A stretch of DNA of 64,000 nt, taken from NCBI GenBank assembly GCA_038874135.1, contig JAVZCZ010000001.1:288968-352967 (forward strand), in the 5' to 3' direction. Shown here in pieces: positions 5,844 through 18,174 of the stretch; position 1 is the stretch's first letter; every line of letters starts with the position of its first letter. The notes under the pieces are model-generated. The model worked only from the letters and a program-made list of their open reading frames with translations, did not search any database and was not told the DNA's origin. Source of the DNA: Candidatus Woesearchaeota archaeon. Its GTDB lineage: Archaea > Nanobdellota > Nanobdellia > Woesearchaeales > 0-14-0-80-44-23. The translations under genes and the position numbers were made by a program.

Positions 5844-5993
5844 TTTTAAACATCTCATTTATGAGCCGGGAAATAAGCTAAATCCTTTTCGCTTCTCCCA
5901 AAGCCACATATAAACATCTACTACCAATGTGAGTATAAGCAGGTAAATTAAAACAAAAAACCCAATAATTCTGGAATAATTTTTCATTTGTAA

Positions 5994-7106
5994 CTACCTA
6001 ATTAATCCTTTTGCTTTTGCTTCAGCATATGCCTTATCAAACTCATCCCGGGAATTAACTGAATTAGACCACCTAACCAGATCTTTTAAACCTTCCTCAA
6101 GAGTAACTCTCGGCATAAAATCTAGTCTGGATTTTAATTTGGATATGTCGGCAAAACAGTGCCTGACATCGCCCGGTCTAAATGTTTCTCTAATATCCGG
6201 CTTTAGATTGGCTCCATAGATTGAGATAAGCCTTTCAGCAACTTCTTTTATCGGAGTTGGAGTTCCTGAACCAACATTAAAAATCTGGTAATCCGCATTT
6301 TTTGATTCAAGAGAACGCACACAAACTTCTGCAACATCATATACTGATATGAAATCTCTAGTCTGAAGCCCGTCTTCATTAATTACGGGCGGGTTTCCAC
6401 TTTTTATTCTACTCATAAAAATAGCAGTAACTCCAGTATAAGGATTGTTAAGAGATTGCCTGGGACCATAAACATTAAAGAACCTAAGCGAAACAGATTT
6501 TATTCCATAAGTTGAACCAACTGTCATCACCATATCCTCCTGAGTTCTCTTGTTAATTGAATAGATTGAATTAGGAAAAGTATAATCATCTTCTGAAATG
6601 GCTACCGGAGTAATCTTACCATTGCATTTAGGACATAAAGGCTCCCAGATTTTTCTTTGAAGCTGCTCAACACTACGCAGCCCAGGCCTAACAAAGCCGC
6701 ACTTCTCGCAGTAATACTTTCCCTCACCATAACTGCTCATACTGGCAGCCACTATTATTTTTTTAACATTATTTTTTTTATTTATGATAAAATCAAGAAG
6801 GTTAGCTGTTCCCAGTACAGTATTATCTACATAATCATAAATTTTATACATGCTCTGAGCCACTCCAACAGAAGCCGCAAAATGAAAAACTGCATCAACA
6901 TCTTTCAGTGCCTTTTTCACATCATTTTTATTTCTCACATCTCCCCGAATAAACTCAGCATTCTGGTTTAAATAATCCGGCACCCCGCTGGGATGAACCT
7001 GCGGATCTAAGTTGTCTAAAATTCTCACATCATAACCACGCTCAACAAGTTTGTCCACTACGAAGCTACCTATAAAGCCTGCTCCACCTGTAACGAGAAC
7101 ATTCAT
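5994..7106 (-). CDS. NAD-dependent sugar epimerase/dehydratase (SDR family) with an internal CxxC...CxxC zinc-ribbon insertion
   Basis: MNVLVTGGAGFIGS Rossmann motif (ATG 7106; longest ORF starts at TTG 7127). Catalytic YxxxK region. Inserted segment YCEKCGFVRPGLRSVEQLQRKIWEPLCPKCNG. Confidence 0.7.
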   Translation of the reverse strand: MNVLVTGGAGFIGSFVVDKLVERGYDVRILDNLDPQVHPSGVPDYLNQNAEFIRGDVRNKNDVKKALKDVDAVFHFAASVGVAQSMYKIYDYVDNTVLGTANLLDFIINKKNNVKKIIVAASMSSYGEGKYYCEKCGFVRPGLRSVEQLQRKIWEPLCPKCNGKITPVAISEDDYTFPNSIYSINKRTQEDMVMTVGSTYGIKSVSLRFFNVYGPRQSLNNPYTGVTAIFMSRIKSGNPPVINEDGLQTRDFISVYDVAEVCVRSLESKNADYQIFNVGSGTPTPIKEVAERLISIYGANLKPDIRETFRPGDVRHCFADISKLKSRLDFMPRVTLEEGLKDLVRWSNSVNSRDEFDKAYAEAKAKGLIR

Positions 7107-7123
7107 TTTTTCACCTTCCCAAT

Positions 7124-8170
7124 TCAAACATTAAGAGATTCTTGAATAGTTGAGATATTCTGTTTTATCCATGCTAACATTATCTTAACGCCTTTTTGTG
7201 GCGAAGTAGAAGGCTTCCATGAAAAATGCTTTTCTGCCTTTCTTATGTCACTAATGTAAACCTTCTGGTCTCCTGCTCGCCAGGGCCCAAACTTATATGA
7301 AATCTTTTTTGAAAGAAGCTTCTCAAGAATTGAAATCAGCTCTAACAGAGAAAGCGTATTCTTTGGGCCTCCACCAATGTTATAGATTTGTCCCGCAGTT
7401 TTTTTACTCTTCAGAGCAAGTTCATAAGCTCTAACTAAATCCTTAACAAACAACACATCCCTAACCTGTTTGCCGTCTCCATAAAGAGTAAGAGGCAGGT
7501 TTAATGATGCAGCTATTGCAAACCAAGCCACCCAGCCCTGGTCTTCAATACCAAACTGCCTTGGACCATAAATGCAGGACTGCCTAAAAACAACTGTGGG
7601 CAGGCCATAAATGCGATAGTAATCTCTCACATACTGATCTGCACACCCCTTGCTGCAACCATAAGGACTGTGAAAGTCAATAGGCCTATGCTCGTCAATT
7701 GCAGTTATATTTTTATAAACATAGCGGCTCTGAGTTTCCGTTACCTTAACATCTTCCATCTGTCCATACACCTTGTTTGTGGAAGAGAAAATAAGCTTAG
7801 GGGTTTTCTTTGACTTTCTCGCCGCTTCAAGCACATTGAAAGTTCCTAATGCGTTGCTTTCAAAATCATATCTCGGATCAATTATTGAAGAAGTCATCGC
7901 TGTTTGTGCCGCCAAATGAATTACATAGTCTGTATTTCTAGTTTCTTTTTCAAGAAGCTTAATGTCAGTTCTTATGTCGGCTTTAACAAATCTGATCATA
8001 GGATAATCTTTTTTCAAAATTAAGAGATTATTCTTAGAACCTTTTCTTGAGAGATTATCTAACACGGTTACATCATATCCCTTATTAATGAAATATTCTG
8101 CAGTGTTAGAACCTATAAAGCCCGCTCCCCCCGTTATTAATATTCTAGGCCCATTCATTTTAGCGAACAT
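7124..8170 (-). CDS. NAD-dependent sugar epimerase/dehydratase (SDR family)
   Basis: RILITGGAGFIGSNTAEYFINKGYDVTVLDNL. Stop overlaps the downstream epimerase start, suggesting an operon. Confidence 0.7.
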   Translation of the reverse strand: MFAKMNGPRILITGGAGFIGSNTAEYFINKGYDVTVLDNLSRKGSKNNLLILKKDYPMIRFVKADIRTDIKLLEKETRNTDYVIHLAAQTAMTSSIIDPRYDFESNALGTFNVLEAARKSKKTPKLIFSSTNKVYGQMEDVKVTETQSRYVYKNITAIDEHRPIDFHSPYGCSKGCADQYVRDYYRIYGLPTVVFRQSCIYGPRQFGIEDQGWVAWFAIAASLNLPLTLYGDGKQVRDVLFVKDLVRAYELALKSKKTAGQIYNIGGGPKNTLSLLELISILEKLLSKKISYKFGPWRAGDQKVYISDIRKAEKHFSWKPSTSPQKGVKIMLAWIKQNISTIQESLNV

Positions 8171-8239: not shown

Positions 8240-8935
8240 TCACTTTTTAATATATATCTTTACATTCCCAATCTGGTAAAGTGTGCTGTTTGCTATAAAA
8301 TCTTGAAATAGTTTTTTGCCATTACACTCAAGAGGGTATTGGGGCATGACTATAAGAAGACGCGGATTCCATGAATTAAGTTCAGCATCATGATTGACTG
8401 AGGAAGAGAACATAGGGTCACCTTCATAGCATACAAATCTGATAAAGTTGAATGGCTCACGATTGGAGAGTAAGTAAATCTCTCCATTCCAACCATAAAC
8501 TAAGATTCTATCTGTTGAGTTGGTATGCTCTTTTATAAAACTGATCACTCTAGTCTGTTCTTCTGCTCCCGAAAAATCGCTGTATGGGAAGTGAAATATC
8601 TTATAATTGATGTTATAATCAGGATATTGTTTAGAAGCGAAGAAAAATGTTGTAAACGATGTGATTAGAAGTAATATTACAAGTACTGATTTTTTATATC
8701 CATTCTTTGATTGAATTAAAAACTTCAATCCCCGTGCAGAGTAAAAGGCTATTGGTGGAAGTACAATTATAAAGTAGTGCCCGAATGAAGGAGGAATAAA
8801 ACAGATTAACAAACCAAACAGTAACCAAGATAAAAACAAAAAATTTATTTGTTTAGAATCTTTGCCATTCTGTATGAGAGATAAAATTCCTAAAAGGGAT
8901 AAGAACAAAAAACATAAAGATTCAAGGATTATCAT
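8240..8935 (-). CDS. Membrane protein, GT-C-like C-terminal module (paralog of the C-terminal third of 12910..14394)
   Basis: Shares the motif IPPSFGHYF plus ...QYP(D/N)xNINxK... with the 494-aa polytopic protein at 12910..14394. About 3 TM segments followed by a soluble domain. Confidence 0.4.
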   Translation of the reverse strand: MIILESLCFLFLSLLGILSLIQNGKDSKQINFLFLSWLLFGLLICFIPPSFGHYFIIVLPPIAFYSARGLKFLIQSKNGYKKSVLVILLLITSFTTFFFASKQYPDYNINYKIFHFPYSDFSGAEEQTRVISFIKEHTNSTDRILVYGWNGEIYLLSNREPFNFIRFVCYEGDPMFSSSVNHDAELNSWNPRLLIVMPQYPLECNGKKLFQDFIANSTLYQIGNVKIYIKK

Positions 8936-8997
8936 AAAATAACCTTCTGCTATTTATTTAGAAAAATTTTTATATGAACACCTTCTTTTTTAGTATA

Positions 8998-10494
8998 ATG
9001 AAAATTTTGCTCATAAACCCGCTTTTTTATTTTAATGGACATCTGTTTAAAAAGAATTACAAAGAGATTAATCTGGGATTATTATACTTAGCATCTGTTG
9101 CGCAAAAAGAAGGTTTTTCTGTTAAAATAATAGCTTTAAATAAACTAGAGACTGAGCGCATAATAAAAAGAGAAAAACCAGACATTGTTGGAATAAGTTG
9201 TATGATAGGACAACAACGGGCCGGTCTTACTATTGCAAAAAAGGTTAAAAAAGTCAATAAGAAGATTATCGTGATAGTGGGAGGGTATTATCCTACTTTC
9301 AGGTATAAAAAGATTTTGGAACAAATACCTGAAGTAGATGTAGTAGTGATAGGTGAAGGTGAAGAATCTTTTAGTGAACTATTAAGATTAATAAATCAGA
9401 AAAAGTTTAATTATAACAATCTAAAAAAGATTAAAGGGATTGCATTTAAAGAGAATAAAAAAATTGTTTTTACAGGAAATCGCGAATTACCGAATTTAGA
9501 TAAATTGCCTTGGCCTAGTAGGACGCTTTGGAGAACAGTTAATTTCTTTGCTTCTCGAGGGTGTAGATTTCGATGTAGGTACTGTTCAATAACCAAATTT
9601 TATAGAAAAGTTGAAAGGTTTAGATCAGTAAAAAATGTTATAGAAGAATTAAAGTGGTTAGAAAAGTTGGGGGAAAAAGATGTTAGTATTAATGACGATA
9701 ATTTCTTAGATAATTTGGATTGGTTTTATAAATTTAGGATATTTTATGTAAAGCAAAGATTAAAGATAAGGAGTGGGATAATGAGTAAACTATTAAATGT
9801 TTTAAGATTAAAAAAACTTAGGTATCTAAAGGAGTGTAATATTAATGAAATCAGTATAGGTTTGCAAGGGATAGGAGATGAAGAAAATAAATTTTTTAGA
9901 ACTGGACACACACTTAAATTATTAGAAGAATTTAATAAAAAACTAATAAGAGAAAACGTTGAATTTGATGCTATTAGTATATTTCTAATAATTAATAGTG
10001 GTGTCAAGCATGAGAACGAGGAATCAATTTTTAATAAGGTAAAGAGAGTAGTAGATCTTTTACCTGAAGGGGCTATCCCTAAGAAAAATAAGCTTGCATT
10101 GTACCCGGGAACAGATATTGCTGAATATTTCATAAAAAAGGGATACTACACAGAGAGTGAAAGCGTATTTAAAGATGATGACTATTTTAATTATTCTTAT
10201 GCAGACCTCAATGAAAGAAAACTTACTGACTTGATAGCTACTGTTGATCAACTATATGAAGAAAGAGCAAAAAGAGAAAGATGGAAAAAGATACCAAAGA
10301 GAATAAGTGCAAATTTTCTTAGTACGGTGAATGCTTACTTGATTATGCTAATGCGCTCTTCTATGAGTTTATGGTTGAAGATCCGTATACTTATGTTCAT
10401 AATATATATAGTTATTAAAGAGTTTGTTTCGTTCAGAAATCCAATTAAAAATGATTATAAATTGGGAAGAATGATCAAAATTAAATATTTCTGA
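8998..10494 (+). CDS. Cobalamin (B12)-binding radical SAM protein
   Basis: MKILLINPLFYF... B12-binding N-term. Radical SAM motif FASRGCRFRCRYCS (Cx3Cx2C). Longest ORF starts at 8974. Confidence 0.7.
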   Translation: MKILLINPLFYFNGHLFKKNYKEINLGLLYLASVAQKEGFSVKIIALNKLETERIIKREKPDIVGISCMIGQQRAGLTIAKKVKKVNKKIIVIVGGYYPTFRYKKILEQIPEVDVVVIGEGEESFSELLRLINQKKFNYNNLKKIKGIAFKENKKIVFTGNRELPNLDKLPWPSRTLWRTVNFFASRGCRFRCRYCSITKFYRKVERFRSVKNVIEELKWLEKLGEKDVSINDDNFLDNLDWFYKFRIFYVKQRLKIRSGIMSKLLNVLRLKKLRYLKECNINEISIGLQGIGDEENKFFRTGHTLKLLEEFNKKLIRENVEFDAISIFLIINSGVKHENEESIFNKVKRVVDLLPEGAIPKKNKLALYPGTDIAEYFIKKGYYTESESVFKDDDYFNYSYADLNERKLTDLIATVDQLYEERAKRERWKKIPKRISANFLSTVNAYLIMLMRSSMSLWLKIRILMFIIYIVIKEFVSFRNPIKNDYKLGRMIKIKYF

Positions 10495-10530
10495 AGAAGG
10501 GTTAGATGGGACTTGGACTTTAAATAAGTG

Positions 10531-10641
10531 CTATCCCAAACTGCTACTACCGGTAACGTGATAATTACACGAGCTAGTTATAGTATCAGTCATTGCAATC
10601 TTTCTAAGAGTGGGCTTTTTCCATACAATCTTGCGTTTCAT
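10531..10641 (-). CDS. Candidate RiPP precursor peptide (36 aa), unannotated small ORF
   Basis: My own translation: MKRKIVWKKPTLRKIAMTDTITSSCNYHVTGSSSLG. It lies 95 nt downstream of the HprK-like gene on the same strand. A TATA-like element (gtttatttataaac, 10661-10674) sits about 26 nt upstream of the ATG. The WKKP leader resembles the PqqA N-terminus. Confidence 0.35.
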   Translation of the reverse strand: MKRKIVWKKPTLRKIAMTDTITSSCNYHVTGSSSLG

Positions 10642-10736
10642 TTTATAAAAAATAATTATTGTTTATTTATAAACTTTTCGCAATAGCTTGGTTTAAACTT
10701 TTATGCTATTTTTAAACATGAAGATAAGCTAACCTT

Positions 10737-11588
10737 TTAAAGATTTGATGAATTGTTTGTAACAAAATTTGTTACGAAGGATACGACAGAATTGTCTTTT
10801 TTGAATTTAAGAGTATACGCTTTAACTGAGTTAACACACGACATCACCAATTTTATGAATTTGGCCTTTGATTCAAAGCTGTAAGGTATTATTGAATTTT
10901 TTAATAAATTATTCAAAAAACTATTTATTCTTATATCTTGTATACTATTATGATTAGATTTTTTAATGAAGAATATATATGCGAGTTCTCCTTTTTTATT
11001 AGAAAAAGATTTCGCACTGCTCTGTGCAGGAGTTCCATAACAGTAAAATTTTCCATTTTTTTTAATGATTATATTAAGTTCGTCGCTAAAACAATTAAAT
11101 CCTGATTTTTTAAACAGTTTACATAGAGTACTTTTTCCTGTTCCGCAGGGACCGACAAATAGAACTACTCTTTTGCGATTGTGCAAATCAAACATAACTC
11201 CGGAGGAATGAACTAAAAAGCTATTTTTTTTCGTCAAATACATCGCCAGTATTCTTTTATTAAAAATGTTTTCAATATCTGTCTTATTAGAAAAGAAGCT
11301 AACTTTATTTTTTTCCTTTATTACGCCCCACTCGCCAGTTTTAGGTTTTATAATTAACTTAGAATTATATTCTAAAAATTTAACTGCAAAGTCTCTGCTC
11401 ACAAGTTTAGATCCTGGAGGGACACAAAAATATCTATAATTCTTCATTAAGAAGGTATAATCCTCTTTTTTATTAGTTCTAAATTGAGCAAATCTATTTA
11501 AGTTAAGATTTTTTTCAGAAACTACCTTAACTACTACTGGACCTATTTTTATTTTAAATTTTTTCATATAAATCACAGTTAATAACAA
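10737..11588 (-). CDS. HPr kinase-related P-loop protein (HprK-like, peptide-maturation associated)
   Basis: Walker A FVGPCGTGKSTLCKLF, in HprK C-terminal-domain-like context. Same strand as the rSAM/SPASM and PqqD genes, and overlaps the rSAM stop. Confidence 0.55.
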   Translation of the reverse strand: MLLTVIYMKKFKIKIGPVVVKVVSEKNLNLNRFAQFRTNKKEDYTFLMKNYRYFCVPPGSKLVSRDFAVKFLEYNSKLIIKPKTGEWGVIKEKNKVSFFSNKTDIENIFNKRILAMYLTKKNSFLVHSSGVMFDLHNRKRVVLFVGPCGTGKSTLCKLFKKSGFNCFSDELNIIIKKNGKFYCYGTPAQSSAKSFSNKKGELAYIFFIKKSNHNSIQDIRINSFLNNLLKNSIIPYSFESKAKFIKLVMSCVNSVKAYTLKFKKDNSVVSFVTNFVTNNSSNL

Positions 11589-12580
11589 TTGTTAAAAAAG
11601 AGTTTAGCAAGTTTACACAAGCGTGGAATCTTTGCTGAGTTAGATGATTTTGGATCGAAGGATTTGATTTCTTGTTCTGCAAAGCCAGGACACCAAAAAC
11701 ATATATTACGGTATTTACAACTAGCACACTTTTTGAATTTCTTTATGTAACTTTGTCTAATGTATTTTAAAGTTTTAAAAGCAATTCTCAGATTCGGAAG
11801 AGCTTTTACTCTTTTTTTTCTTAAGAGGAAGCAGAGCCCCATATTTCCTTTTGAATCAATATGAAAAGAGCGGATACCTGCACTGCAATTAAAAACTTCA
11901 GCTGAATGTTTTAATACTTTTAAGTTTATTTTGTATCTATTACAAAACAAATCAAAAAGATCGTGTGTTGATAAACTAACCTTTCTAGCATTTTTTCCGA
12001 TGATAATTGGATTAAACTCTATCCTTTTTTTTGTAAAGTTCAAACTAAGATTATCAAGTTTTTTAAAGTATTTCTTTAACTGATAAAGAGGAAGCGTTCT
12101 GAGTTCTAGATTAAATTTCTTTAAGGATTTAAGATTATTTAGTACAGTAGTGTATGCTGCTTTTCCAGTTATTTTTCTATACGTAATGTTATCGACTCCG
12201 TACAATGTGATTCTTATAAGCATAGGAGGTTTTTTCTTAAAAGTATCTAATATTTTTTTTGTAACAAAAGACCCATTTGAGTTTATAGTTATTCTATTAC
12301 CAAACAGGGTGTACGCATAATTATAAATTTCTAAAAAGTTTGGATGAAGTAGAGGTTCTCCTCCTGTTAGAATTATATTTGTAACACCGAGTCGATAGGC
12401 CTGTTTAAGAATCTTTTTAAATTTGATCACGGGTAATTCTGAGCTAGTAGCTTGTTTAATATTCTTAAAATAGCAATGTTTACATTTGAAGTTGCATTTC
12501 TGTGTTATTTCCAAATGAAGAAGATTAGGGGGAAATTCCTGATTTAAGATAGTTTCAGATTCTTTATCGTAGCTGTACAT
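11579..12580 (-). CDS. Radical SAM peptide maturase with C-terminal SPASM-type Cys cluster
   Basis: LEITQKCNFKCKHCYF (Cx3Cx2C), TGGEPLL. C-terminal CASCKYRNICFWCPGFAEQE auxiliary cluster motif. Confidence 0.7.
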   Translation of the reverse strand: MYSYDKESETILNQEFPPNLLHLEITQKCNFKCKHCYFKNIKQATSSELPVIKFKKILKQAYRLGVTNIILTGGEPLLHPNFLEIYNYAYTLFGNRITINSNGSFVTKKILDTFKKKPPMLIRITLYGVDNITYRKITGKAAYTTVLNNLKSLKKFNLELRTLPLYQLKKYFKKLDNLSLNFTKKRIEFNPIIIGKNARKVSLSTHDLFDLFCNRYKINLKVLKHSAEVFNCSAGIRSFHIDSKGNMGLCFLLRKKRVKALPNLRIAFKTLKYIRQSYIKKFKKCASCKYRNICFWCPGFAEQEIKSFDPKSSNSAKIPRLCKLAKLFFNNCY

Positions 12581-12581
12581 T

Positions 12582-12854
12582 TTAGGATTTTATTAAGATT
12601 TTTAAAGACAGTGCTTTTTTAATAAAGTTCATAAAATCTTTATCTAATTTACTTGCACTAATATCAAATTTCCGGCTTAGAATTTTTTTAGTTTTAGAAA
12701 TCCCATTTTTTACAACACCTTTTAATATGATCGATGCAGTTTTATTTAAGATAAAGTAATTAGGAGAATTTTTTCTAGTTAGTATCAGAAAGTACTGATT
12801 ATTATTAACTGAATAGAATCTGGCTTTTCCATTAAAAAAATATTTTTTTGACAT
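12582..12854 (-). CDS. PqqD-family RiPP recognition element (peptide chaperone)
   Basis: 90 aa. YFILNKTASIILKGVVKNGISKTKKILSRKFDISASKLDKDFMNFIKKAL matches the PqqD fold pattern. The radical SAM gene starts 1 nt downstream. Confidence 0.6.
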   Translation of the reverse strand: MSKKYFFNGKARFYSVNNNQYFLILTRKNSPNYFILNKTASIILKGVVKNGISKTKKILSRKFDISASKLDKDFMNFIKKALSLKILIKS

Positions 12855-12909
12855 AATTAATATTAAAAAGGCAGTAAGCTTTTTAAATATTGCTATTTTA
12901 ATTTTTAAA

Positions 12910-14394
12910 GTGAATAAGATAAATAATACAAAAGAAAGAATTGATAAAGAACTAGTTTTTCTAATAATCTTATCAATTTTTTTAAGATTTATATGGCTAT
13001 ATGCTGCTATAGAACGAGATGAAGGAATTTTTGGTTATAGTGCATTTAAACTATCGATTAATGAATTAAAAATTGTGGATAATAAAATTCCTATTGTTTA
13101 TATCATCTATTTATTAATAATGATTATACACAAATTACTTTCCTTTAATTTTCCTGTAATTATTAGTGTACGAATTGTTAATAACCTCCTATTCCTAATA
13201 GCAGTAGTTTGCTTATATAGGTTTTTTTCAGAGGAAAAAAGAGAAATTGCCTTTTTTTCTACTATCTTTTTCATAATATTCATGAATCTTCCTGTTTTTG
13301 AAGGACAACTTGCTATGACTGAATCATTGGGAATGAATTTTTTTGTGTTAGGATTAATATATATGCTTAGATATGCTAAACATTATGAACCTGCTTATTT
13401 TAGAATATCATTTTTTTTCTTTTTACTGGCCGCTTTATTAAAGTACCCTTTTTTGTTCCTTTCAGTTCATACGATTATATTTTTTATAAAAAACAGAACA
13501 GGTTTTAAAAAAGTTGCTCTTTTTTTAATTACTTATTTTATAACAGCGATTCTGATGCTTGGTTTCTATTTTATTGCATTTCCTGAAAATGTTTTATTTT
13601 TTATTATTGAAAGTATAAACGTATTAAATGAGGTCCCTGAAATTTACAGTTTTAGTAGTCTTAAGTTAGTTCTTATCGAGGGTTTCTTTTTTATAATTTT
13701 AGTTGTTTTAGGTGTTTTAGAGTATTATAAAGTAGAGAAAAAGGAGAAAATTTTTTATTTGTTTAAGAATATGTTGCTTATCTCATTGGTACTCTCATTG
13801 ATTCCTCCTTCGTTTGGTCATTATTTTCTGATAAATTCAATAGCTGTAGCATTTTTTGCTGGAGTTGGAATACTATCCTTAAAAAGGTTTAGCATTAAAT
13901 TAGTGAAGTATATCATAATTGTAATTCTTTTCCTTGCAATTATAATCTCAGTTTATTTTTCAATGTTACAATATCCTAATCTTAACATTAATTTTAAAGG
14001 AATTAACGTAGTATATAATGATTTCTTAGATTTGAAACAGCAGTTAGAAGTTTCAAAATTTTTAGAAAATCATATTAAACAAAACGAGAGCTTTGCCATG
14101 TGTGGTTTTGATGGAACTTTAGGTTGGCTGTCAGAACGGCGTATTTTTTCTGGAGTTAGAAAATTTTGTTATATTCCAAACGGAAAAGAAAATGAAAATA
14201 AAGTTTTAAAAATATTAAAAGATAGATACCTTTCAAGAATTATAATTTATGATGTAGCTAAAATTTTAAGTTGCGAACTACCAGATAATATTAAATATCT
14301 GGTTCTATTTACTAATGCATATGATGAAACTTTGTTTAAATGTACTGGTAAGATTGAGATGAAATATGATAATTTATTGATTTGCAAATGTTAA
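12910..14394 (+). CDS. Polytopic membrane protein, GT-C (PMT/ArnT-like) glycosyltransferase candidate
   Basis: About 11 predicted TM helices followed by a C-terminal soluble domain. GTG start. Shares the IPPSFGHYF module with 8240..8935. Confidence 0.45.
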   Translation: MNKINNTKERIDKELVFLIILSIFLRFIWLYAAIERDEGIFGYSAFKLSINELKIVDNKIPIVYIIYLLIMIIHKLLSFNFPVIISVRIVNNLLFLIAVVCLYRFFSEEKREIAFFSTIFFIIFMNLPVFEGQLAMTESLGMNFFVLGLIYMLRYAKHYEPAYFRISFFFFLLAALLKYPFLFLSVHTIIFFIKNRTGFKKVALFLITYFITAILMLGFYFIAFPENVLFFIIESINVLNEVPEIYSFSSLKLVLIEGFFFIILVVLGVLEYYKVEKKEKIFYLFKNMLLISLVLSLIPPSFGHYFLINSIAVAFFAGVGILSLKRFSIKLVKYIIIVILFLAIIISVYFSMLQYPNLNINFKGINVVYNDFLDLKQQLEVSKFLENHIKQNESFAMCGFDGTLGWLSERRIFSGVRKFCYIPNGKENENKVLKILKDRYLSRIIIYDVAKILSCELPDNIKYLVLFTNAYDETLFKCTGKIEMKYDNLLICKC

Positions 14395-15548
14395 GTGACA
14401 AAATGATAGTAAAGAATTACAGACGGCTAAGATTCATCATTGTGTTACTTTTTATTGAAATGATTATCATATTAATGTGGTTATCACATTATGAGATTGA
14501 GAGATATCAACAGCAACAGATTAATAAGTTGAATGAAAAGATTGAAAAATTACTCGAGTATTCAAAGCATTTAAATAACAACTGTACAGTTATTGTTTAT
14601 GAAGATAACAGTTTAATATGTGAAAAAACTGCTGGGCCATACACAATTTATGATTACATAAAATTATACGAATTCACAGGAGAACTGGATTTTTTTAATA
14701 CTGCTAAAAGATTAAGTGCTTGCTTGGAAAATTCAAATTTTTCATATATTAAAGATAGATGTGATTTAAATCTGTGGGATGGCAAAAATTATAAAATTGC
14801 CTGGATGTTTTCTGAATATTATTATTATAATCATTTGAACAAATCGGCAGGAGACATTTATAAAAAAATGTTAGAAGATTTAAAAATGAATATTTCTAAT
14901 AACCAGAATATATCTGAAAATTTAATATTAACCCAGTTTAAAATAAGGGAGCTTAGAGCATTAGAACAACAAGCCATTAATAAATGTATTATAAACAAAG
15001 AATGCAATATAACCGAGGAATATAAAAAGATAATTCAAGCATATCTAGAGATTGAAAGTATTTCTGAAACAAATTTTTTTTACATAAACCCTCAATGGTT
15101 ACAAGGAGCATGTTCTGCATTAAAAGGATTTAAAATGTATGGAGACCCTAAAAATTTTGAAACAAATATTATAATAAAAGAAATTGAAATTAGAGTATTT
15201 CACAGAATCAGTAGACTTTTAAGTGATCAAAGAATAGAAGGATATTTTAATGAAAAATTTTTTTCAAAAAAAGATGATGTAGATAGTACAATCTATACAT
15301 ACAAAGCAGTATTAGCGTTAGACGCCTGTCTTGATGCAAAATTAGCACCTTACAGCTTAAATGCAATAATTAATCAAAGTATAAAAAAAGGTTTAATCTA
15401 TTTACTAAATCAACAGGATGAAAAAGGAGGAATAATTGAAAGATATAAAGTTCCACATAAAACAGAAAGTTTAAACGATGAGATCCTTGTACTCGCTATA
15501 AAATATTTTGGTCTTCCCTACAAAAAAATAAATGAAAAAATCAAGTAA
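14382..15548 (+). CDS. Hypothetical N-terminally membrane-anchored protein
   Basis: Single N-terminal TM (FIIVLLFIEMIIILMWL), then a soluble domain with Cys pairs. 13-nt overlap with the upstream gene. No confident family assignment. Confidence 0.4.
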   Translation: MQMLSDKMIVKNYRRLRFIIVLLFIEMIIILMWLSHYEIERYQQQQINKLNEKIEKLLEYSKHLNNNCTVIVYEDNSLICEKTAGPYTIYDYIKLYEFTGELDFFNTAKRLSACLENSNFSYIKDRCDLNLWDGKNYKIAWMFSEYYYYNHLNKSAGDIYKKMLEDLKMNISNNQNISENLILTQFKIRELRALEQQAINKCIINKECNITEEYKKIIQAYLEIESISETNFFYINPQWLQGACSALKGFKMYGDPKNFETNIIIKEIEIRVFHRISRLLSDQRIEGYFNEKFFSKKDDVDSTIYTYKAVLALDACLDAKLAPYSLNAIINQSIKKGLIYLLNQQDEKGGIIERYKVPHKTESLNDEILVLAIKYFGLPYKKINEKIK

Positions 15549-15624
15549 GTAGATTAGAATGATTTTAGATAACAATTTAAATATGAAAAATATTTTATAA
15601 TCCATACCTAAAAGAGGAAAATTT

Positions 15625-17430
15625 ATGAAATTTAAAAGATCTCCAAAAGTATATCAAAATTATAAGTGTGACAATCCTAAGAATACAATAAGAAAAATTG
15701 ATAGTGGCTTTAGAAGAGTTGGTCTTGCGGTAGTGTACAGATGTAAAGAAATTAAATTAAAAAATTTAAATTATTTCACGGGTAGTGTGAGGCTTCCTTA
15801 CTTAAATCTTACAAGTAATGGGAAAGGCTGGAATTATTATTTAAGCAAAGCCAGTGCATGTGGAGAAGCTGTTGAACGATTTTCAGCTGAGATGCATTCT
15901 CCTGCATCTTATCTATTTATGAAGAGTATTATAAAAAATTTCTGGGCAGATGATATTAAATATTATTCTTCTTTTTATTTTAAATCTTTTACAAAAAATA
16001 AAGGGAATAGTAATAAAGCAAGTTATACAAATGATAAAGTCACTAATAATTGGTTGAGAGAAATTAAAAAACAGATGAACAGTGTGAGAAGGAATAGTAA
16101 AAATGTTTATGCATTCTCTCTAATTCATAAAAAATATATAAGAATTCCTGCAACAAAGGTTAAATTATTATCATTTTCGAATGGGCTAGCTGCTGGCAAT
16201 ACCCTAGAAGAAGCAATTGTTCAGGGAGCTAATGAAATTTTTGAAAGATATATTTTAGCAAGAGTTATTAATAATAAAAAGAAGATATGGCCAACGATTG
16301 ATAAAACCAGTATAAAAAGTAAGAGGATAATTAATTTTATTAAGTTATTTGAAAGTAACAATTTTGACATAATTTTAAAAGATTTTTCATTGAATGGCGA
16401 ATTTCCCTGTTATGGTGTATTATTTGTTAATAACAATTTAAAGAATACAAAAAATAAAATAAAAAAAAGGTATTTTTTTAGAAGAGTAAGAATTGCATCA
16501 GATTTTAATCCTGAGATTGCTATTCTAAGATGCTTTATGGAAGAATTACAAGGTAAAGATTTAAAAGATCTAAAAAAACATAAATATTTAGACTCAATTT
16601 GGGAGTTGGGCCTAAAGGAAAATTTAAAGTTTGTATTCAATACGGATCTATCAAACTTAAGATATTACCATTATCCTAAGAGTTTAAGACATCTAGAAGA
16701 AGGTAAAATAGAAAAGTTTGACCATTTAAAAAATAAGAAATTTAGTGATTTCTATGATGAACTAGAAGAAATTAAAAAAATAATAGAAAAACAGAAAAGA
16801 GATATCTTAATTATCGATTATACCCATCCGAAAATAAGGTTTCCTGTTGTGCGAGTAATAATTCCAGGCATGTCAGATATGGTAAATTTGTTTTCATCAA
16901 TTAGACTAACAAAAGCATCAGATGAAGAGATATATTCTCTAATGTATCCTTATTTTAAGTATATGAAAAGATTTATTTTAAATAATATGTGGGTCAAATC
17001 ACAAGAAGGAGTTAAAGAGTTTGTTGAAGCGCTCAGATCATATATTTCAAATTATCCGCTTATGGAAGAGATTCCAACTCCGGTTTTCCCATTAAAAGAA
17101 AATTCAGTTTATATGCTAATGCTATTTTCCTATTTGCGAATAAGAAAGTATGAATCAGCTCTTAATTATCTAAAAACAATAATAAAAATTTATCCAAAAA
17201 ACAAAAAACTTTTTGATAAACTGTACCGATATTTAAAAAGTGTAAAAAAAGATAATATAAACTATGAGAGAATTAAAGTAATGGTTAAAGATCTACCATT
17301 TCAGGAAAAAGTTATACTTTTAGAACCACATAGAAACCCATTAGACCCAAATTTTTTCCTAAGTAAAGAAAATGAATTTTTTACTAAATTAGTTTTGATT
17401 AGAGCAATGAAATCTTTTGAGGGGTCATAA
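15625..17430 (+). CDS. YcaO-domain protein with C-terminal TPR-like extension (E. coli YcaO-like architecture)
   Basis: ATP-binding YcaO motifs SNGKGWNYYLSKASACGEAVERFSAE and SFSNGLAAGNTLEEAIVQGANEIFERYI. 601 aa. Shine-Dalgarno-like aagagga lies upstream. Confidence 0.8.
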   Translation: MKFKRSPKVYQNYKCDNPKNTIRKIDSGFRRVGLAVVYRCKEIKLKNLNYFTGSVRLPYLNLTSNGKGWNYYLSKASACGEAVERFSAEMHSPASYLFMKSIIKNFWADDIKYYSSFYFKSFTKNKGNSNKASYTNDKVTNNWLREIKKQMNSVRRNSKNVYAFSLIHKKYIRIPATKVKLLSFSNGLAAGNTLEEAIVQGANEIFERYILARVINNKKKIWPTIDKTSIKSKRIINFIKLFESNNFDIILKDFSLNGEFPCYGVLFVNNNLKNTKNKIKKRYFFRRVRIASDFNPEIAILRCFMEELQGKDLKDLKKHKYLDSIWELGLKENLKFVFNTDLSNLRYYHYPKSLRHLEEGKIEKFDHLKNKKFSDFYDELEEIKKIIEKQKRDILIIDYTHPKIRFPVVRVIIPGMSDMVNLFSSIRLTKASDEEIYSLMYPYFKYMKRFILNNMWVKSQEGVKEFVEALRSYISNYPLMEEIPTPVFPLKENSVYMLMLFSYLRIRKYESALNYLKTIIKIYPKNKKLFDKLYRYLKSVKKDNINYERIKVMVKDLPFQEKVILLEPHRNPLDPNFFLSKENEFFTKLVLIRAMKSFEGS

Positions 17431-17571
17431 AAAGGGAATGGCTGAATTAGAGATAAATAAAGCAAAGATTACCAGAAAGACCTGTGAACTAAAAATGCAT
17501 GAAATTTAGAAACCTTTTTAAACCCTTCCCTTTACTCCCTTGTGAGGTAAAGATTTTGAAGGGGAATTTAA

Positions 17572-18174
17572 ATGGTTGAAATAAAGGCTTTTAACAGGTG
17601 GAGCACGCAGGGCATCGTAGTTAGTGATCCTGGCTTGAAGGATTATATTACTCTTGAGCCCAAGATTGCTCCTAGGAGTAACGGCACATATGCTGGAAAC
17701 AAGTTTTACAAGTCTAAGATTTTTATTGTTGAGCGCCTTATGAATAAGCTGATGGTTGCTGGGCATAGGGCTAAGAAGCACACTTTTACTTCTTCCCTGC
17801 TTACTGGGAAGAGCCAGAGCGCTTACAAGCTTACTGAGAGAGCTTTAGAGATTATTGAGCAGAAGACCAAGAAGAATCCCATTCAGGTTTTGGTTACTGC
17901 TATTGAGAACGCTGCTCCCCGTGAGGGCATAGTTTCTATAGAGTATGGAGGTGCCAGGTATCCTAAGGCAGTGGATGTGAGTCCTCAGCGCAGGATTGAC
18001 TTAGCGCTTAGGCTTATGGTGCAGGGTGCTTATGCTAAGACTTTTAACAATCCTAAGAAGAAGTTTGAGGAGATGCTTGCTGCTGAGATAATAGACGCTT
18101 ATAATCTCAGTCCGAACTCAAATGCGATATCTAAGAAGCTTATGACTGAGAGGCAGGCTGAAGCTTCAAGGTAA
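17572..18174 (+). CDS. rps7: 30S ribosomal protein uS7 (S7P)
   Basis: MVEIKAFNRWS...LMVAGHRAKKHTF...IENAAPREG typical archaeal S7. GC content higher than upstream block. Confidence 0.85.
   Translation: MVEIKAFNRWSTQGIVVSDPGLKDYITLEPKIAPRSNGTYAGNKFYKSKIFIVERLMNKLMVAGHRAKKHTFTSSLLTGKSQSAYKLTERALEIIEQKTKKNPIQVLVTAIENAAPREGIVSIEYGGARYPKAVDVSPQRRIDLALRLMVQGAYAKTFNNPKKKFEEMLAAEIIDAYNLSPNSNAISKKLMTERQAEASR

What the first reader, a model, noticed from the sequence alone, without database searches (positions are those of the whole stretch)
8998..17430. Extremely AT-rich 8.4-kb block carrying radical SAM, PqqD, kinase, YcaO and GT-C-like genes: probable horizontally acquired accessory island
By eye, GC content from about 9.0 to 17.4 kb is markedly lower than the flanking housekeeping genes; the eye estimates are roughly 25% here versus over 40% for uS7 and dnaK. 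Every gene in the block is a secondary-metabolism, modification or membrane function: a B12-rSAM, the RiPP-like operon, a GT-C-like membrane protein, an unknown membrane-anchored protein and YcaO. The block ends abruptly at a structured spacer before uS7. This is the part of the window most likely to encode a lineage-specific system.
Basis: seen in the sequence. Interest (0 to 1): 0.6.

Follow-up and report, generated by a model that had tools for sequence, protein, structure and literature searches.

The report
Strain-variable low-GC island in DPANN archaeon
The AT-rich block is real and is the right-hand part of a larger strain-variable accessory island in a tiny symbiotic-type (DPANN) archaeon, carrying very divergent peptide- and sugar-modifying enzymes; it is a good example of a known phenomenon, not a new kind of system.

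Summary
Observation confirmed. The seven genes at 8974-17430 have GC 0.268 and GC3 0.221, against 0.417 and 0.432 for 37 core genes (p = 5e-8).

The anomaly is wider than reported. The sugar-gene tier at 1-8.9 kb shares the block's codon usage (RSCU r = 0.92) and differs from the core (r = 0.71). The island therefore spans at least 17.5 kb and runs off the window's left edge.

The right edge is sharp, at about 17505, 67 bp before the uS7 start codon. A sister MAG is identical from there on (1 mismatch in 10,670 bp). To the left it carries unrelated low-GC DNA encoding a different HprK-like kinase and PqqD. None of 80 related uS7 loci carries any block gene; most show rpoB-rpoA'-rpoA''-L30e-NusA-uS12-uS7. 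No integrase, tRNA or flanking repeats were found. This fits a replacement-type flexible genomic island.

The content looks like three separate modules:
- a PqqD-like / rSAM-SPASM / HprK-like kinase operon with an unproven 36-aa candidate precursor;
- a B12-rSAM plus a ~600-aa YcaO, a pair that recurs elsewhere;
- a GT-C-like transferase plus an ORFan with a low-confidence alpha/alpha-toroid model.

All proteins are at most 39% identical to anything in the databases. The "structured spacer" is not supported. Interest is moderate.

The parts
3..1793 (-). HpnJ-like B12-binding radical SAM protein with the start of a second B12-binding-like domain. It is incomplete and runs off the window's left edge. 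Part of the low-GC tier.
   Evidence: Open frame found. Pfam Radical_SAM and B12-binding hits. NCBIfam HpnJ 254 bits against a cutoff of 577. Only 25% identical to the block's B12-rSAM.
1775..8170 (.). Sugar-gene tier: GT2 (1775-2698 +), GT1 with a coiled-coil tail (2702-4672 +), GT4 (4677-5858 -), and two NAD-dependent epimerase/dehydratases (5994-7127 - and 7124-8170 -). Intermediate GC (0.31-0.385).
   Evidence: Pfam and NCBIfam hits. GC3 0.24-0.35. RSCU r = 0.92 with the block and 0.71 with the core.
8240..8935 (-). 231-aa homolog of the C-terminal half of the GT-C-like protein. The N-terminal half is missing and would lie where the lowest-GC block begins, so this may be a remnant that marks an internal junction.
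   Evidence: BLASTP against residues 253-421 of the protein at 12910-14394: 32% identity, E = 2e-23. No Pfam or NCBIfam hit. Three predicted TM segments.
8974..10494 (+). Class-B (cobalamin-binding) radical SAM enzyme, 506 aa, with a C-terminal TM helix. Probably a C-methyltransferase.
   Evidence: PF02310 83.9 bits and PF04055 57.5 bits. No NCBIfam equivalog reaches its cutoff. Best PDB match is TokK, E = 5e-10. Homologs sit next to YcaO homologs in L092/L093 (32% identity, E = 7e-37) and in L102 and L103. TM segment at residues 463-481.
10531..10641 (-). Candidate precursor peptide, 36 aa: MKRKIVWKKPTLRKIAMTDTITSSCNYHVTGSSSLG. Unproven.
   Evidence: It is the only ATG-started ORF on the operon strand in the block's largest intergenic gap, 95 bp downstream of the kinase gene, with a TATA-like TTTATAAATA 26-35 bp upstream. 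Its W-x-K-P-x-L leader and SSC-x-Y core resemble precursors next to related rSAMs. However, a profile built from those precursors does not retrieve it (E = 29 and E = 8), and no curated precursor family matches.
10737..11588 (-). HPr-kinase-like P-loop kinase of the ScmC / HprK-related superfamily. 283 aa from the first start codon; gene callers give 276 aa.
   Evidence: Weak NCBIfam hits to HprK_rel_A and HprK_rel_B. 3,397 representatives at E <= 1e-3, all at most 38% identical. Of the 26 aligned sequences (the window kinase plus 25 relatives), 21, 18 and 16 hit HprK_rel_B, HprK_rel_A and ScmC. Walker A GPCGTGKS at residue 146, with H127, K152 and D169 conserved. 30% identical to the ScmC of L098 (E = 4e-15).
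11579..12580 (-). Radical SAM/SPASM peptide-maturase-type enzyme, 333 aa.
   Evidence: PF04055 80.9 bits. CX3CX2C at 29-36, Cx12Gx4C at 232-250 and Cx2Cx5Cx2C at 285-297. Best PDB matches are SkfB and PqqE. The nearest homologs (at most 31% identity) sit in clusters of the form precursor, PqqD, rSAM, ABC exporter.
12582..12854 (-). PqqD-like probable RiPP recognition element, 90 aa, directly upstream of the rSAM gene with a 1-bp gap.
   Evidence: PF05402 E = 0.0019, 18.9 bits against a cutoff of 23.4. The AF2 model has beta3-alpha3 topology at pLDDT 71. Foldseek against PDB gives no significant hit. It occupies the same position as the Pfam-recognised PqqD in L090 and L098.
12910..14394 (+). 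GT-C-like polytopic membrane glycosyltransferase candidate, 494 aa.
   Evidence: PF13231 PMT_2 E = 8.7e-5, 23.2 bits against a cutoff of 26.1. About 10-12 TM helices in residues 1-355 plus a C-terminal soluble domain of about 140 aa. ERDEG acidic motif in the first loop. No match to any PDB sequence.
14382..15548 (+). ORFan of 388 aa with an N-terminal TM anchor and a possible alpha/alpha-toroid domain (low-confidence model). Overlaps the end of the GT-C-like gene by 13 bp.
15625..17430 (+). YcaO-superfamily ATP-dependent amide-activating enzyme, 601 aa, with a C-terminal extension of about 170 aa. No TfuA, E1-like partner or dehydrogenase is present in the window.
   Evidence: PF02624 150.5 bits. 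The family of ~600-aa homologs is 27-39% identical with conserved acidic motifs. Best PDB match is E. coli YcaO, then MJ1094, then TruD/LynD.
17431..17504 (.). Strain-specific spacer on the island side of the breakpoint.
   Evidence: No similarity to the sister strain's sequence to the left of 17505.
17505..18174 (+). Conserved side: uS7 promoter and 5' region (17505-17571, with TTTTTAAA and a CCCTTC/GAAGGG hairpin) and the uS7 gene (17572-18174), detached from uS12.
   Evidence: 99.99% identity to L003 from 17505 onward. Independent contigs L001 and L002 end at 17534 and 17528. uS7 matches NF003106 at 233.7 bits. No uS12 or NusA anywhere in the window.

Best explanation
Window 1 to about 17505 is part of a low-GC, strain-variable 'replacement-type' flexible genomic island in the chromosome of a DPANN archaeon. 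NCBI labels the MAG Aenigmatarchaeota, but its uS7 is closest to Woesearchaeota. The island abuts the promoter of a uS7 gene that this lineage has detached from the ancestral uS12-uS7 operon. Different strains carry different low-GC cassettes of the same functional type at this site, most likely exchanged by recombination in the conserved flanks and not by a self-mobile element.

The flagged 8.4-kb segment is the lowest-GC part of the island and is a mosaic of three modules.

(i) A tightly packed operon (1-bp gap, then a 10-bp overlap) encoding a PqqD-like protein, an rSAM/SPASM enzyme and an HprK-like kinase, plus a candidate 36-aa precursor. Inferred mechanism: the PqqD-like recognition element binds the W-K-K-P-x-L leader, the rSAM/SPASM enzyme installs a radical cross-link at or near the single Cys of the core, and the kinase phosphorylates Ser or Thr in the Ser-rich tail.

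(ii) A cobalamin-dependent rSAM and a ~600-aa YcaO, a pair that recurs together elsewhere. Inferred mechanism: C-methylation plus ATP-dependent backbone amide activation (thioamide or azoline), acting either on the same peptide or on a protein.

(iii) A GT-C-like transferase with a membrane-anchored ORFan whose low-confidence model resembles an alpha/alpha toroid. Inferred role: an extracytoplasmic glycan step that belongs with the upstream sugar genes.

Shown here: the composition, the breakpoint, the strain polymorphism, the absence from relatives, the enzyme superfamilies and motifs, and the module co-occurrence. Inferred only: substrates, chemistry, the identity of the precursor, and the exchange mechanism.
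For: Composition: (GC3 0.221 in the block, 0.289 upstream, 0.432 in the core; RSCU r = 0.57 block-core and 0.92 block-upstream, against 0.94 for the core-half control).

Strain polymorphism with a sharp boundary: L003 is identical to the window from 17505 onward (1 mismatch in 10,670 bp). Its 809 bp to the left are unrelated at the DNA level, have low GC (0.295), and encode a 29%-identical kinase homolog and a barely related PqqD. Two other assemblies break 24-30 bp past the breakpoint, as expected at a de Bruijn graph branch.

Absence from relatives: none of 80 uS7 loci has a block gene. The canonical rpoB...uS12-uS7 order holds in most Woesearchaeota, and Dph2 or the permease recur downstream in some.

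No mobility hallmarks. This matches the published definition of replacement flexible islands (PMC4033161). The only SNP lies 75 bp from the boundary.

Module (i): SPASM motifs. The nearest rSAM relatives sit in precursor-PqqD-rSAM-ABC clusters. The PqqD / precursor / ScmC / rSAM / ABC arrangement recurs in L098 and L099. The kinase has an intact P-loop.

Module (ii): B12-rSAM homologs lie next to YcaO homologs in L092/L093, L102 and L103.

Module (iii): gene overlap, membrane topology and fold, and a homolog of the C-terminal half of the GT-C-like protein, lacking its N-terminal half, next to the sugar genes.
Against: - The left boundary of the island lies outside the window, so 'island' is defined on one side only.
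- Only 809 bp of the alternative allele are known.
- No donor lineage can be named. Every block protein is at most 39% identical to anything in the databases, so recent transfer from a sampled organism is excluded, and rapid in-situ divergence cannot be fully separated from transfer.
- The precursor is not statistically supported and matches no curated family.
- The PqqD and GT-C assignments are sub-threshold, and the PqqD model has no significant structural match.
- No exporter, leader peptidase, TfuA, E1-like partner or dehydrogenase is present in the block.
- YcaO relatives in Heimdall- and Bathyarchaeia stand alone, with no RiPP context.
Confidence: 0.72

Rival explanations
1. The YcaO and B12-rSAM (and possibly the rSAM and kinase) are protein-modifying enzymes, not natural-product enzymes. 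They would install a backbone thioamide and C-methyl groups on a folded cellular or surface protein, as YcaO and B12-rSAMs do on McrA in methanogens and as E. coli YcaO does on ribosomal protein uL16. This reading is compatible with the island interpretation and competes only with the assumption that everything acts on one secreted peptide.
For: The best PDB match of the YcaO is E. coli YcaO, with a similar length (601 versus 586 aa). EcYcaO acts without TfuA and without a nearby small ORF on uL16, and its authors expect further protein substrates (PMC13063428). The YcaO / B12-rSAM pair recurs as a two-gene unit with no obvious precursor (L103), and YcaO homologs stand alone in Heimdall- and Bathyarchaeia. 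No kinase or PqqD homolog lies near any of the 80 YcaO relatives. The B12-rSAM gives weak hits to the McrA glutamine C-methyltransferase family.
Against: NF040716 (EcYcaO type) scores 91 bits against a cutoff of 700, and methan_mark_1 scores 89 against 365, so it is a member of neither family. One relative (L092) sits in a TOMM-like cluster with a second YcaO and a nitroreductase. Its location on a strain-variable island argues against a core housekeeping target. No substrate has been identified.
Confidence: 0.25
2. The region is native, not horizontally exchanged. Its low GC would reflect relaxed selection or AT-biased mutation on weakly expressed accessory genes that have always been at this position.
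For: No integrase, transposase, tRNA or flanking repeats. No identifiable donor, and all proteins are highly divergent or orphan. The GC gradient across 1-17.5 kb could be read as a local mutational effect.
Against: A strain with only 1 mismatch in 10.7 kb of flank carries unrelated DNA to the left of a base-precise breakpoint, which local mutation cannot produce. GC1, GC2 and amino-acid usage are shifted, not only GC3. Codon usage differs far more than the internal control. The genes are absent at this position in all relatives.
Confidence: 0.08
3. The rSAM plus kinase form an antiviral defence module (prokaryotic viperin with an associated kinase), and the block is a defence island.
For: PADLOC pVip models hit the rSAM at E = 6e-19, and 'viperins associated with kinases' at E = 3e-13. 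The B12-rSAM hits a defence-candidate model. Defence islands are typically variable and low in GC.
Against: The hits cover only the generic rSAM core (residues 23-152). Non-viperin families score as well or better (NirJ2 E = 2.9e-20; viperin_w_prok 55 bits against a cutoff of 180). The C-terminal half carries a complete SPASM cysteine signature, which viperins lack. The kinase is HprK/ScmC-like, not a nucleotide kinase. Relatives sit in clusters with precursor peptides and ABC exporters. The other five block proteins and the 231-aa GT-C-like fragment give no PADLOC hit.
Confidence: 0.05
4. The block is an assembly or binning chimera, with low-GC DNA from another organism joined to the uS7 contig.
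For: There is an abrupt compositional change at one point. Two assemblies end within 30 bp of that point. MAG contigs can be chimeric at short shared k-mers.
Against: The identical YcaO is on a 910-kb contig. Independent assemblies reproduce 4549-17534 and 12345-17528 at 99.96-100% identity and extend 24-30 bp into the conserved uS7 promoter segment. The sister strain also has a low-GC kinase/PqqD cassette joined at exactly the same base, which would require two independent chimeras at one site.
Confidence: 0.03

Closest known systems
Replacement flexible genomic islands (Lopez-Perez, Rodriguez-Valera and co-workers; PMC4033161), for example O-antigen, glycosylation and cell-wall islands, including the Haloquadratum walsbyi cell-wall island (PMC4535781)
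   Same: The island sits at the same chromosomal position in near-identical strains, with completely different gene clusters of similar assigned function. There are no integrase or transposase hallmarks. Surface-glycan genes (GT2, GT1, GT4, sugar dehydratases, a GT-C-like protein) make up much of the island, and GC is atypically low. The one flank SNP lies beside the boundary.
   Different: The host is a DPANN archaeon. The island also carries RiPP-type enzymes (rSAM/SPASM, PqqD, kinase, YcaO, B12-rSAM). Only one boundary and 809 bp of the second allele were seen, and a SNP peak cannot be established from one SNP.
SynChlorMet (SCM) cassette and the HprK-related kinase A/B systems (NCBIfam TIGR04249-04251, TIGR04352, TIGR04355), which are defined bioinformatically and have no characterised product
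   Same: A PqqD homolog, PqqE-like rSAM/SPASM enzyme(s) and an HPr-kinase-like P-loop protein lie in one operon, and all are presumed to modify a ribosomal peptide. The sister strain's fragment hits Pfam ScmC weakly, and L098 has a clear ScmC next to an rSAM homolog.
   Different: There is one rSAM, not two (ScmE and ScmF). All scores are far below the curated cutoffs (58-63 bits against 400), and the window's kinase does not hit the ScmC model itself. No exporter is present, and the cassette is embedded between YcaO/B12-rSAM and glycan genes.
Lasso-peptide tailoring HPr-kinase homologs (paeninodin type; reviewed in PMC8498205)
   Same: An HprK-like kinase is encoded beside a PqqD-type recognition element and a small precursor with a Ser-containing C-terminus. 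By analogy, it would phosphorylate Ser on the peptide.
   Different: There is no lasso cyclase or leader peptidase (B/C proteins). The partner enzyme here is an rSAM/SPASM. Kinase identity to any characterised member was not established.
YcaO enzymes acting with or near cobalamin rSAMs: the McrA modification enzymes (PMC5589413, PMC7581889), E. coli YcaO acting on uL16 (PMC13063428), and TOMM/thiopeptide clusters
   Same: The YcaO ATP-binding acidic motifs are conserved. The protein has EcYcaO-like length and gives EcYcaO as its best PDB hit. It co-occurs with a class-B rSAM.
   Different: It is below the cutoff of every named YcaO subfamily. No TfuA, E1-like or dehydrogenase partner is present in the window. 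The host has no MCR in the window. The gene is strain-variable.

Membership tests
Replacement-type flexible genomic island | Same genomic location in closely related strains | tested here: met
   Both alleles join the conserved sequence at window 17505, 67 bp upstream of uS7. The flank is 99.99% identical over 10,670 bp.
Replacement-type flexible genomic island | Completely different gene clusters with negligible DNA similarity but similar assigned function | tested here: met
   L003 positions 1-809 give no blastn match to the window. Both alleles encode an HprK-like kinase (29% identity) and a PqqD-like protein (19% identity, E = 0.085). Only 809 bp of the second allele are available.
Replacement-type flexible genomic island | No integrase, transposase or att-type hallmarks at the boundaries | tested here: met
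   The only tRNA is at 45.8 kb. No flanking direct repeats. No integrase or transposase domains in the annotated ORFs. The left boundary was not seen.
Replacement-type flexible genomic island | Peak of mostly synonymous substitutions in the bordering conserved genes | tested here: inconclusive
   The only mismatch in 10,670 bp is synonymous and lies 75 bp from the breakpoint (uS7 codon 3, position 17580). One SNP cannot define a peak.
SynChlorMet cassette (TIGR04249/04250/04251) | Two PqqE-like rSAM/SPASM proteins (ScmE and ScmF) scoring above the curated cutoffs | tested here: not met
   There is a single rSAM. ScmF scores 63.2 bits and ScmE 58.4 bits against cutoffs of 400.
SynChlorMet cassette (TIGR04249/04250/04251) | ScmC protein | tested here: not met
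   The window's kinase hits HprK_rel_A and HprK_rel_B only weakly and does not hit TIGR04249 or PF27840. In alignment A1, 16 of the 26 sequences hit ScmC weakly, the window kinase not among them.
RRE-dependent rSAM/SPASM RiPP pathway | Radical SAM CX3CX2C motif plus SPASM auxiliary-cluster cysteine motifs | tested here: met
   CNFKCKHC at residues 29-36, Cx12Gx4C at 232-250, Cx2Cx5Cx2C at 285-297. PF04055 80.9 bits.
RRE-dependent rSAM/SPASM RiPP pathway | PqqD-like recognition element (winged helix, beta3-alpha3) | tested here: inconclusive
   PF05402 scores 18.9 bits against a cutoff of 23.4. The model has beta3-alpha3 topology at pLDDT 71. No significant Foldseek hit. Its position matches that of PqqD in L090 and L098.
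RRE-dependent rSAM/SPASM RiPP pathway | Adjacent gene for a short precursor peptide with a leader and a core | tested here: inconclusive
   A 36-aa ORF lies at 10641-10531 with a WKKPxL leader-like motif. A profile built from the relatives' precursors gives E = 29 and E = 8. A post hoc regex hits 2 of 82,655 residues. No curated family matches.
RRE-dependent rSAM/SPASM RiPP pathway | Leader peptidase and/or dedicated exporter in the cluster | tested here: not met
   None is present among the block ORFs, whereas the relatives have ABC exporters.
YcaO superfamily (PF02624) | YcaO ATP/Mg-binding domain scoring above the gathering score | tested here: met
   150.5 bits against 25.7. E81, E84, E204 and E207 are invariant within the family alignment.
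Thioamide-forming YcaO-TfuA and azoline-forming TOMM YcaO systems | Partner protein (TfuA, or an E1-like/Ocin-ThiF protein, with or without a dehydrogenase) encoded nearby, and a subfamily model above cutoff | tested here: not met
   No such domain occurs in the window ORFs scanned with Pfam (31 of about 50). methan_mark_1 scores 89 against 365, SagD-type 69.5 against 219, and YcaO_for_S12 91 against 700.
Class-B cobalamin-dependent radical SAM methyltransferases | N-terminal B12-binding domain plus a radical SAM core | tested here: met
   PF02310 83.9 bits and PF04055 57.5 bits. No specific equivalog reaches its cutoff, so the substrate class is undetermined.
GT-C fold glycosyltransferases (PMT_2 / ArnT-like) | Family HMM above threshold; polytopic N-terminal domain with an acidic motif in the first extracytoplasmic loop; C-terminal soluble domain | tested here: inconclusive
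   PF13231 scores 23.2 bits against a cutoff of 26.1. There are about 10-12 TM segments and a C-terminal domain of about 140 aa. ERDEG follows TM1. No PDB sequence match.
Prokaryotic viperin (pVip) defence | Full-length viperin homology including the C-terminal nucleotide-binding extension, with no auxiliary Fe-S domain | tested here: not met
   PADLOC hits cover residues 23-152 only. viperin_w_prok scores 55 bits against 180. A SPASM motif is present.

The most novel reading that the evidence does not exclude
The site upstream of the detached uS7 gene may be a hypervariable locus in which co-existing strains of a DPANN episymbiont each carry a different kinase-tailored rSAM peptide cassette together with surface-glycan genes. 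That would make it a diversifying interaction or antagonism locus for host or competitor recognition. In addition, the YcaO / B12-rSAM pair may be a portable two-enzyme unit that thioamidates and methylates a protein target outside methanogens.
Probability: 0.15. Interest if true: 0.7.

Novelty: new variant of a known kind. Interest (0 to 1): 0.42.

Why it matters
DPANN archaea have tiny genomes and depend on hosts, so whatever they keep in a variable island is likely to matter for interaction with the host or with competitors. This locus shows strain-level replacement at base-pair resolution, inside what is normally one of the most conserved archaeal gene strings (rpo-NusA-uS12-uS7).

It brings together surface-glycan genes and enzymes of the RiPP type that are orphans in sequence space: at most 39% identity to anything in the databases, plus one true ORFan. 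No archaeal rSAM or YcaO RiPP product has been characterised (PMC12144867), and no product is known for ScmC/HprK-type cassettes.

The cluster is compact and gives a candidate 36-aa substrate that can be tested directly. The recurring YcaO / B12-rSAM pair is a lead for new protein or peptide thioamidation chemistry. The island phenomenon itself is well known, which limits how surprising the finding is.

Tried and rejected
- Structured spacer before uS7: folding 17431-17580 gave z = -0.04 against shuffles. Rejected.
- Rfam and tRNA scans: only tRNA-Phe at 45.8 kb. No tRNA integration site.
- Flanking direct or inverted repeats at the block edges: only low-complexity AT-rich matches, plus the similarity between the two GT-C-like genes.
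- Finding the left boundary: the first exact-protein look-up failed because of the wrong start codon. The second returned only the 13-kb Logan contig. The left boundary remains unknown.
- The contig break near 4.55 kb was first considered a second variable junction. It is explained by a perfect 63-bp x 6.3 tandem repeat.
- Precursor validation by a profile HMM built from the relatives' precursors: not significant, twice. Curated precursor families including PqqA: no hit.
- PqqD fold confirmation with Foldseek against PDB: no significant match.
- ORFan function: no sequence homolog. The low-confidence model gives only a generic alpha/alpha-toroid fold. A LanC-like cyclase reading was considered and not adopted, because the protein is membrane-anchored, no LanC zinc-ligand motifs were evident, and the model is weak.
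- Defence-system reading (pVip plus kinase): rejected on the SPASM motif and the limited hit coverage.
- Mobile-element origin: no blastn match of the block to the plasmid or phage collections. Only one distant YcaO relative on a viral contig. The kinase alignment was too divergent to scan viral contigs.
- Exact-match search for other junction alleles in JGI metagenomes: no hits.
- Literature: no papers on 'SynChlorMet' and none combining HPr kinase, radical SAM, RiPP and PqqD.

Full report
**Observation**

The reported GC dip is real. In 1-kb windows, GC is 0.24-0.29 from about 8.5 to 17.5 kb and climbs to 0.36-0.40 immediately after 17.5 kb. Most of the remaining window is 0.39-0.47.

Per gene, the seven ORFs at 8974-17430 have GC 0.227-0.297 and GC3 0.192-0.251. 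uS7 has GC 0.443 and DnaK 0.463. Against 37 downstream genes (GC3 0.432, sd 0.053), the block (0.221, sd 0.026) differs with Mann-Whitney p = 5e-8. First and second codon positions and amino-acid usage are shifted too (FYMINK 0.43-0.55 versus about 0.30). These proteins have therefore been evolving in an AT-rich background for a long time.

**The anomaly is wider than reported**

The genes at 1-8935 are also atypical: GC 0.349, GC3 0.289, p = 1e-7 against the core. They comprise an HpnJ-like B12-rSAM that runs off the left edge, GT2, GT1, GT4, two sugar epimerase/dehydratases, and a 231-aa membrane protein.

Their codon usage matches the block (RSCU r = 0.92, close to the 0.94 of a core-half versus core-half control). 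It does not match the core (r = 0.71; block versus core r = 0.57). Tetranucleotide correlation with the core is 0.50-0.75 across the first 18 kb, against 0.85-0.94 elsewhere, apart from the gene for a 3,069-aa repeat protein.

The foreign-looking domain is therefore at least 17.5 kb long, and its left end lies outside the window. Position ~8.95 kb is a secondary step (block versus upstream tier p = 0.004). At that step sits a 231-aa ORF (8240-8935, - strand) that aligns with residues 253-421 of the block's GT-C-like protein (32% identity, E = 2e-23). It lacks the N-terminal half, which would have lain exactly where the lowest-GC DNA begins. This suggests a nested insertion or replacement, but does not prove one.

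**Host and normal context**

uS7 is of the archaeal type. Its closest relatives (57-81% identity) are in Woesearchaeota/Nanoarchaeota MAGs. NCBI labels the source MAG Aenigmatarchaeota. The identical YcaO is recorded on a 910-kb contig.

In most related Woesearchaeota the order is rpoB-rpoA'-rpoA''-L30e-NusA-uS12-uS7. In the window uS7 stands alone, and no uS12 or NusA is present anywhere in the 64 kb. None of the seven block genes occurs within 10 kb of uS7 in any of the 80 loci. Downstream genes (Dph2, the permease-methyltransferase, M50) do recur near uS7 in several relatives.

**The right boundary and strain polymorphism**

A contig from a sister MAG (L003, GCA_038872315.1) matches the window from 17505 to 28174 with a single mismatch in 10,670 bp. 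Its 809 bp to the left of that point have no DNA similarity to the window.

That alternative flank is also low in GC (0.295). It encodes the C-terminal part of a P-loop kinase that is 29% identical to the window's kinase, and a PqqD-family protein that is only marginally similar to the window's (19% identity, E = 0.085).

Two further independent assemblies reproduce window 4549-17534 and 12345-17528 at 99.96-100% identity. They stop 24-30 bp past the breakpoint, as expected at a de Bruijn graph branch where two alleles share one side.

The breakpoint lies 67 bp upstream of the uS7 start codon, leaving the TATA-like TTTTTAAA and a short hairpin on the conserved side. The spacer as a whole is not unusually structured (z = -0.04).

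No tRNA, integrase, transposase or flanking repeats were found, and the block has no DNA match in the plasmid or phage collections.

The pattern is the same site, unrelated DNA, the same kinds of genes and no mobility hallmarks. That is the published definition of a replacement flexible genomic island, which is thought to be exchanged by homologous recombination in the conserved flanks (PMC4033161). That model predicts extra synonymous changes at the borders. Here the only flank SNP is synonymous and lies 75 bp from the breakpoint. This is suggestive, but it is a single SNP.

**Module (i): a RiPP-type operon on the minus strand**

The 90-aa ORF (12854-12582), the 333-aa rSAM (12580-11579) and the 283-aa kinase (11588-10737) are separated by a 1-bp gap and a 10-bp overlap.

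- The rSAM has CX3CX2C at residues 29-36 and a full SPASM signature: Cx12Gx4C at 232-250 and Cx2Cx5Cx2C at 285-297. Its best solved relatives are SkfB and PqqE.
- The rSAM is nearly an orphan. Outside its own genome, the best hit among 5.8 billion proteins is about 30% identical.
- Those distant relatives sit in textbook RiPP clusters: one or two 34-aa peptides, a 96-aa PqqD-like protein, the rSAM and two ABC exporters. Others are a 77-aa peptide, PqqD and rSAM, or PqqD, a 134-aa peptide, ScmC, rSAM and ABC.
- The kinase has an intact Walker A motif (GPCGTGKS) and conserved His, Lys and Asp. It belongs to a large, distant HPr-kinase-like family whose members hit HprK-related A/B and SynChlorMet ScmC models weakly, never above the cutoffs.
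- The 90-aa protein is a sub-threshold PqqD (18.9 bits against 23.4) with a beta3-alpha3 model (pLDDT 71) but no significant structural match. I call it a probable recognition element, mainly on its position.

**The candidate precursor**

The largest intergenic gap in the block (10495-10736) holds a 36-aa ORF on the operon strand: MKRKIVWKKPTLRKIAMTDTITSSCNYHVTGSSSLG. A TATA-like element lies 26-35 bp upstream.

Its W-K-K-P-T-L leader and SSC-N-Y core resemble the relatives' precursors, for example Y-T-K-P-E-L ... GGC-W-Y and Y-T-K-P-D-L ... SSGC-E-Y.

An objective test failed, however. Profiles built from those precursors alone rank it 47th (E = 29) and 11th (E = 8) among 1,681 six-frame segments. 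No curated precursor family matches. A loose regex hits only 2 of 82,655 residues, one of them this ORF, but I wrote that regex after seeing the peptide. The precursor is therefore plausible (I estimate about 0.55-0.6) but unproven.

**Module (ii): B12-rSAM and YcaO**

The 506-aa class-B rSAM (PF02310 and PF04055; C-terminal TM helix; best solved match TokK) and the 601-aa YcaO (150 bits) lie 5 kb apart, at the two ends of the block. Their homologs are neighbours elsewhere:
- in L092/L093, within a cluster of B12-rSAM, a second YcaO, a nitroreductase and the YcaO homolog;
- in L102;
- in L103, where they are directly adjacent.

None of the 80 YcaO-relative loci contains a kinase, PqqD, GT-C or ORFan homolog. 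Modules (i) and (iii) are therefore not generally linked to this pair.

The YcaO belongs to a family of ~600-aa proteins, mostly from uncultivated archaea, at 27-39% identity with conserved acidic ATP/Mg motifs. It falls below the cutoff of every named subfamily. The window contains no TfuA, E1-like partner or dehydrogenase.

Its best solved match is E. coli YcaO, which has recently been shown to thioamidate ribosomal protein uL16 without TfuA and without a nearby small ORF (PMC13063428). I therefore keep a rival open in which this pair modifies a protein.

**Module (iii): glycan-type pair**

The 494-aa protein has a sub-threshold PMT_2 hit, about 10-12 TM helices, an acidic ERDEG loop after TM1 and a C-terminal soluble domain. 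It has no PDB sequence match.

Together with the homolog of the GT-C-like protein's C-terminal half and the GT2, GT1, GT4 and dehydratase genes upstream, the simplest reading is surface-glycan biosynthesis.

**Rivals considered**

- A defence reading (viperin plus kinase) is raised by PADLOC hits. It is contradicted by the SPASM motif, the restriction of those hits to the rSAM core, and the RiPP context of the relatives.
- A chimeric assembly is unlikely, given the 910-kb spanning contig, independent assemblies reaching into the conserved segment, and a second low-GC allele joined at the same base.
- A purely native, mutationally AT-enriched region cannot explain the allele replacement.

**Comparison with known systems, and verdict**

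The island behaves like a replacement flexible genomic island. The operon works like, but is not a member of, the SynChlorMet and HprK-related cassettes: it has one rSAM where they have two, and its scores are far below the cutoffs. RiPP clusters of rSAM and YcaO type have been predicted across archaea including DPANN, with no product characterised (PMC12144867).

The finding is therefore a new variant of known kinds. It is a well-delimited example (on one side) of strain-level island replacement in a DPANN genome, sitting where the uS12-uS7 linkage is broken and carrying unusually divergent modification enzymes.

I rate interest as moderate (0.42). The phenomenon is familiar, the chemistry is unknown but testable, and the most novel reading has perhaps a 15% chance. 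In that reading the site is a diversifying interaction locus and the YcaO / B12-rSAM pair is a portable protein-modification unit.

Noticed in passing
window 17572-18174, and loci L006-L028: uS7 stands alone. No uS12 or NusA is present anywhere in the 64-kb window, whereas most related Woesearchaeota keep rpoB-rpoA'-rpoA''-L30e-NusA-uS12-uS7. About a third of the 18 relatives examined also have uS7 without uS12 upstream, so this conserved operon has been broken more than once in the lineage.
   Followed up: partly
window 4183-4578 (inside the GT1 gene at 2702-4672): A perfect 63-bp x 6.3 tandem repeat (100% matches) encodes about seven copies of a 21-aa coiled-coil unit (QQQNQTIKNLEKEIQNKEQTI) at the C-terminus of a GT1 glycosyltransferase. 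It coincides with an AT-skew spike of 0.44 and with the end of a Logan contig near 4549.
   Followed up: partly
window 17580: The only difference between the two strains across 10,670 bp of shared flank is a synonymous GAA to GAG change in codon 3 of uS7, 75 bp from the island breakpoint. Under uniform placement the chance of that is about 0.7%.
   Followed up: partly
window 17526-17564: A short hairpin (CCCTTC ... GAAGGG) lies between the TATA-like TTTTTAAA and the uS7 start codon, and it is conserved in both strains. It could be a 5'-UTR regulatory element of uS7. The spacer as a whole is not significantly structured.
   Followed up: partly
window 3-1793 (- strand): An HpnJ-like B12-binding radical SAM protein (254 bits, cutoff 577) continues into what looks like a second B12-binding domain and runs off the left edge of the window. 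The accessory region therefore contains at least three radical SAM genes.
   Followed up: partly
window 53661-62870: A gene for a 3,069-aa protein with Ig-like repeats (Big_3_3, Big_13, Y_Y_Y), probably a giant surface protein. Its tetranucleotide signature also departs from the core (r = 0.61-0.74), although its GC is normal.
   Followed up: no
window 19550-21487 (- strand); L019 14470-16386: An amino-acid permease fused to a SAM-dependent methyltransferase domain (645 aa). It is conserved at 41% identity near uS7 in one Woesearchaeota relative.
   Followed up: no
L098 and L099, 1-10500: A cassette of PqqD, a 134-aa peptide, ScmC, rSAM and an ABC exporter sits among polysaccharide-export genes (Wzz, a BY-kinase-like ATPase, CpsB/CapC). 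The window's cassette likewise sits among glycosylation genes, so these cassettes may be associated with surface-polysaccharide loci.
   Followed up: no
L103 595-3773; L102 25-3879: A ~600-aa YcaO and a B12-rSAM form a tight two-gene unit (directly adjacent in L103) in AT-rich uncultivated genomes, with no evident precursor gene nearby.
   Followed up: partly
window 26578-32125 (- strand): A complete chaperone cluster (Hsp20, GrpE, DnaK, DnaJ) together with a CxxCxxCC protein and an HD-domain protein, in a DPANN genome.
   Followed up: no
loci L004-L024 (record titles): Several MAGs titled 'uncultured Methanosarcinales archaeon' (binchicken co-assemblies) have uS7 sequences and gene orders that cluster with Woesearchaeota. 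The source MAG is labelled Aenigmatarchaeota, although its uS7 is only 47-51% identical to the Aenigmatarchaeota entries. The taxonomic labels in these records look unreliable.
   Followed up: no
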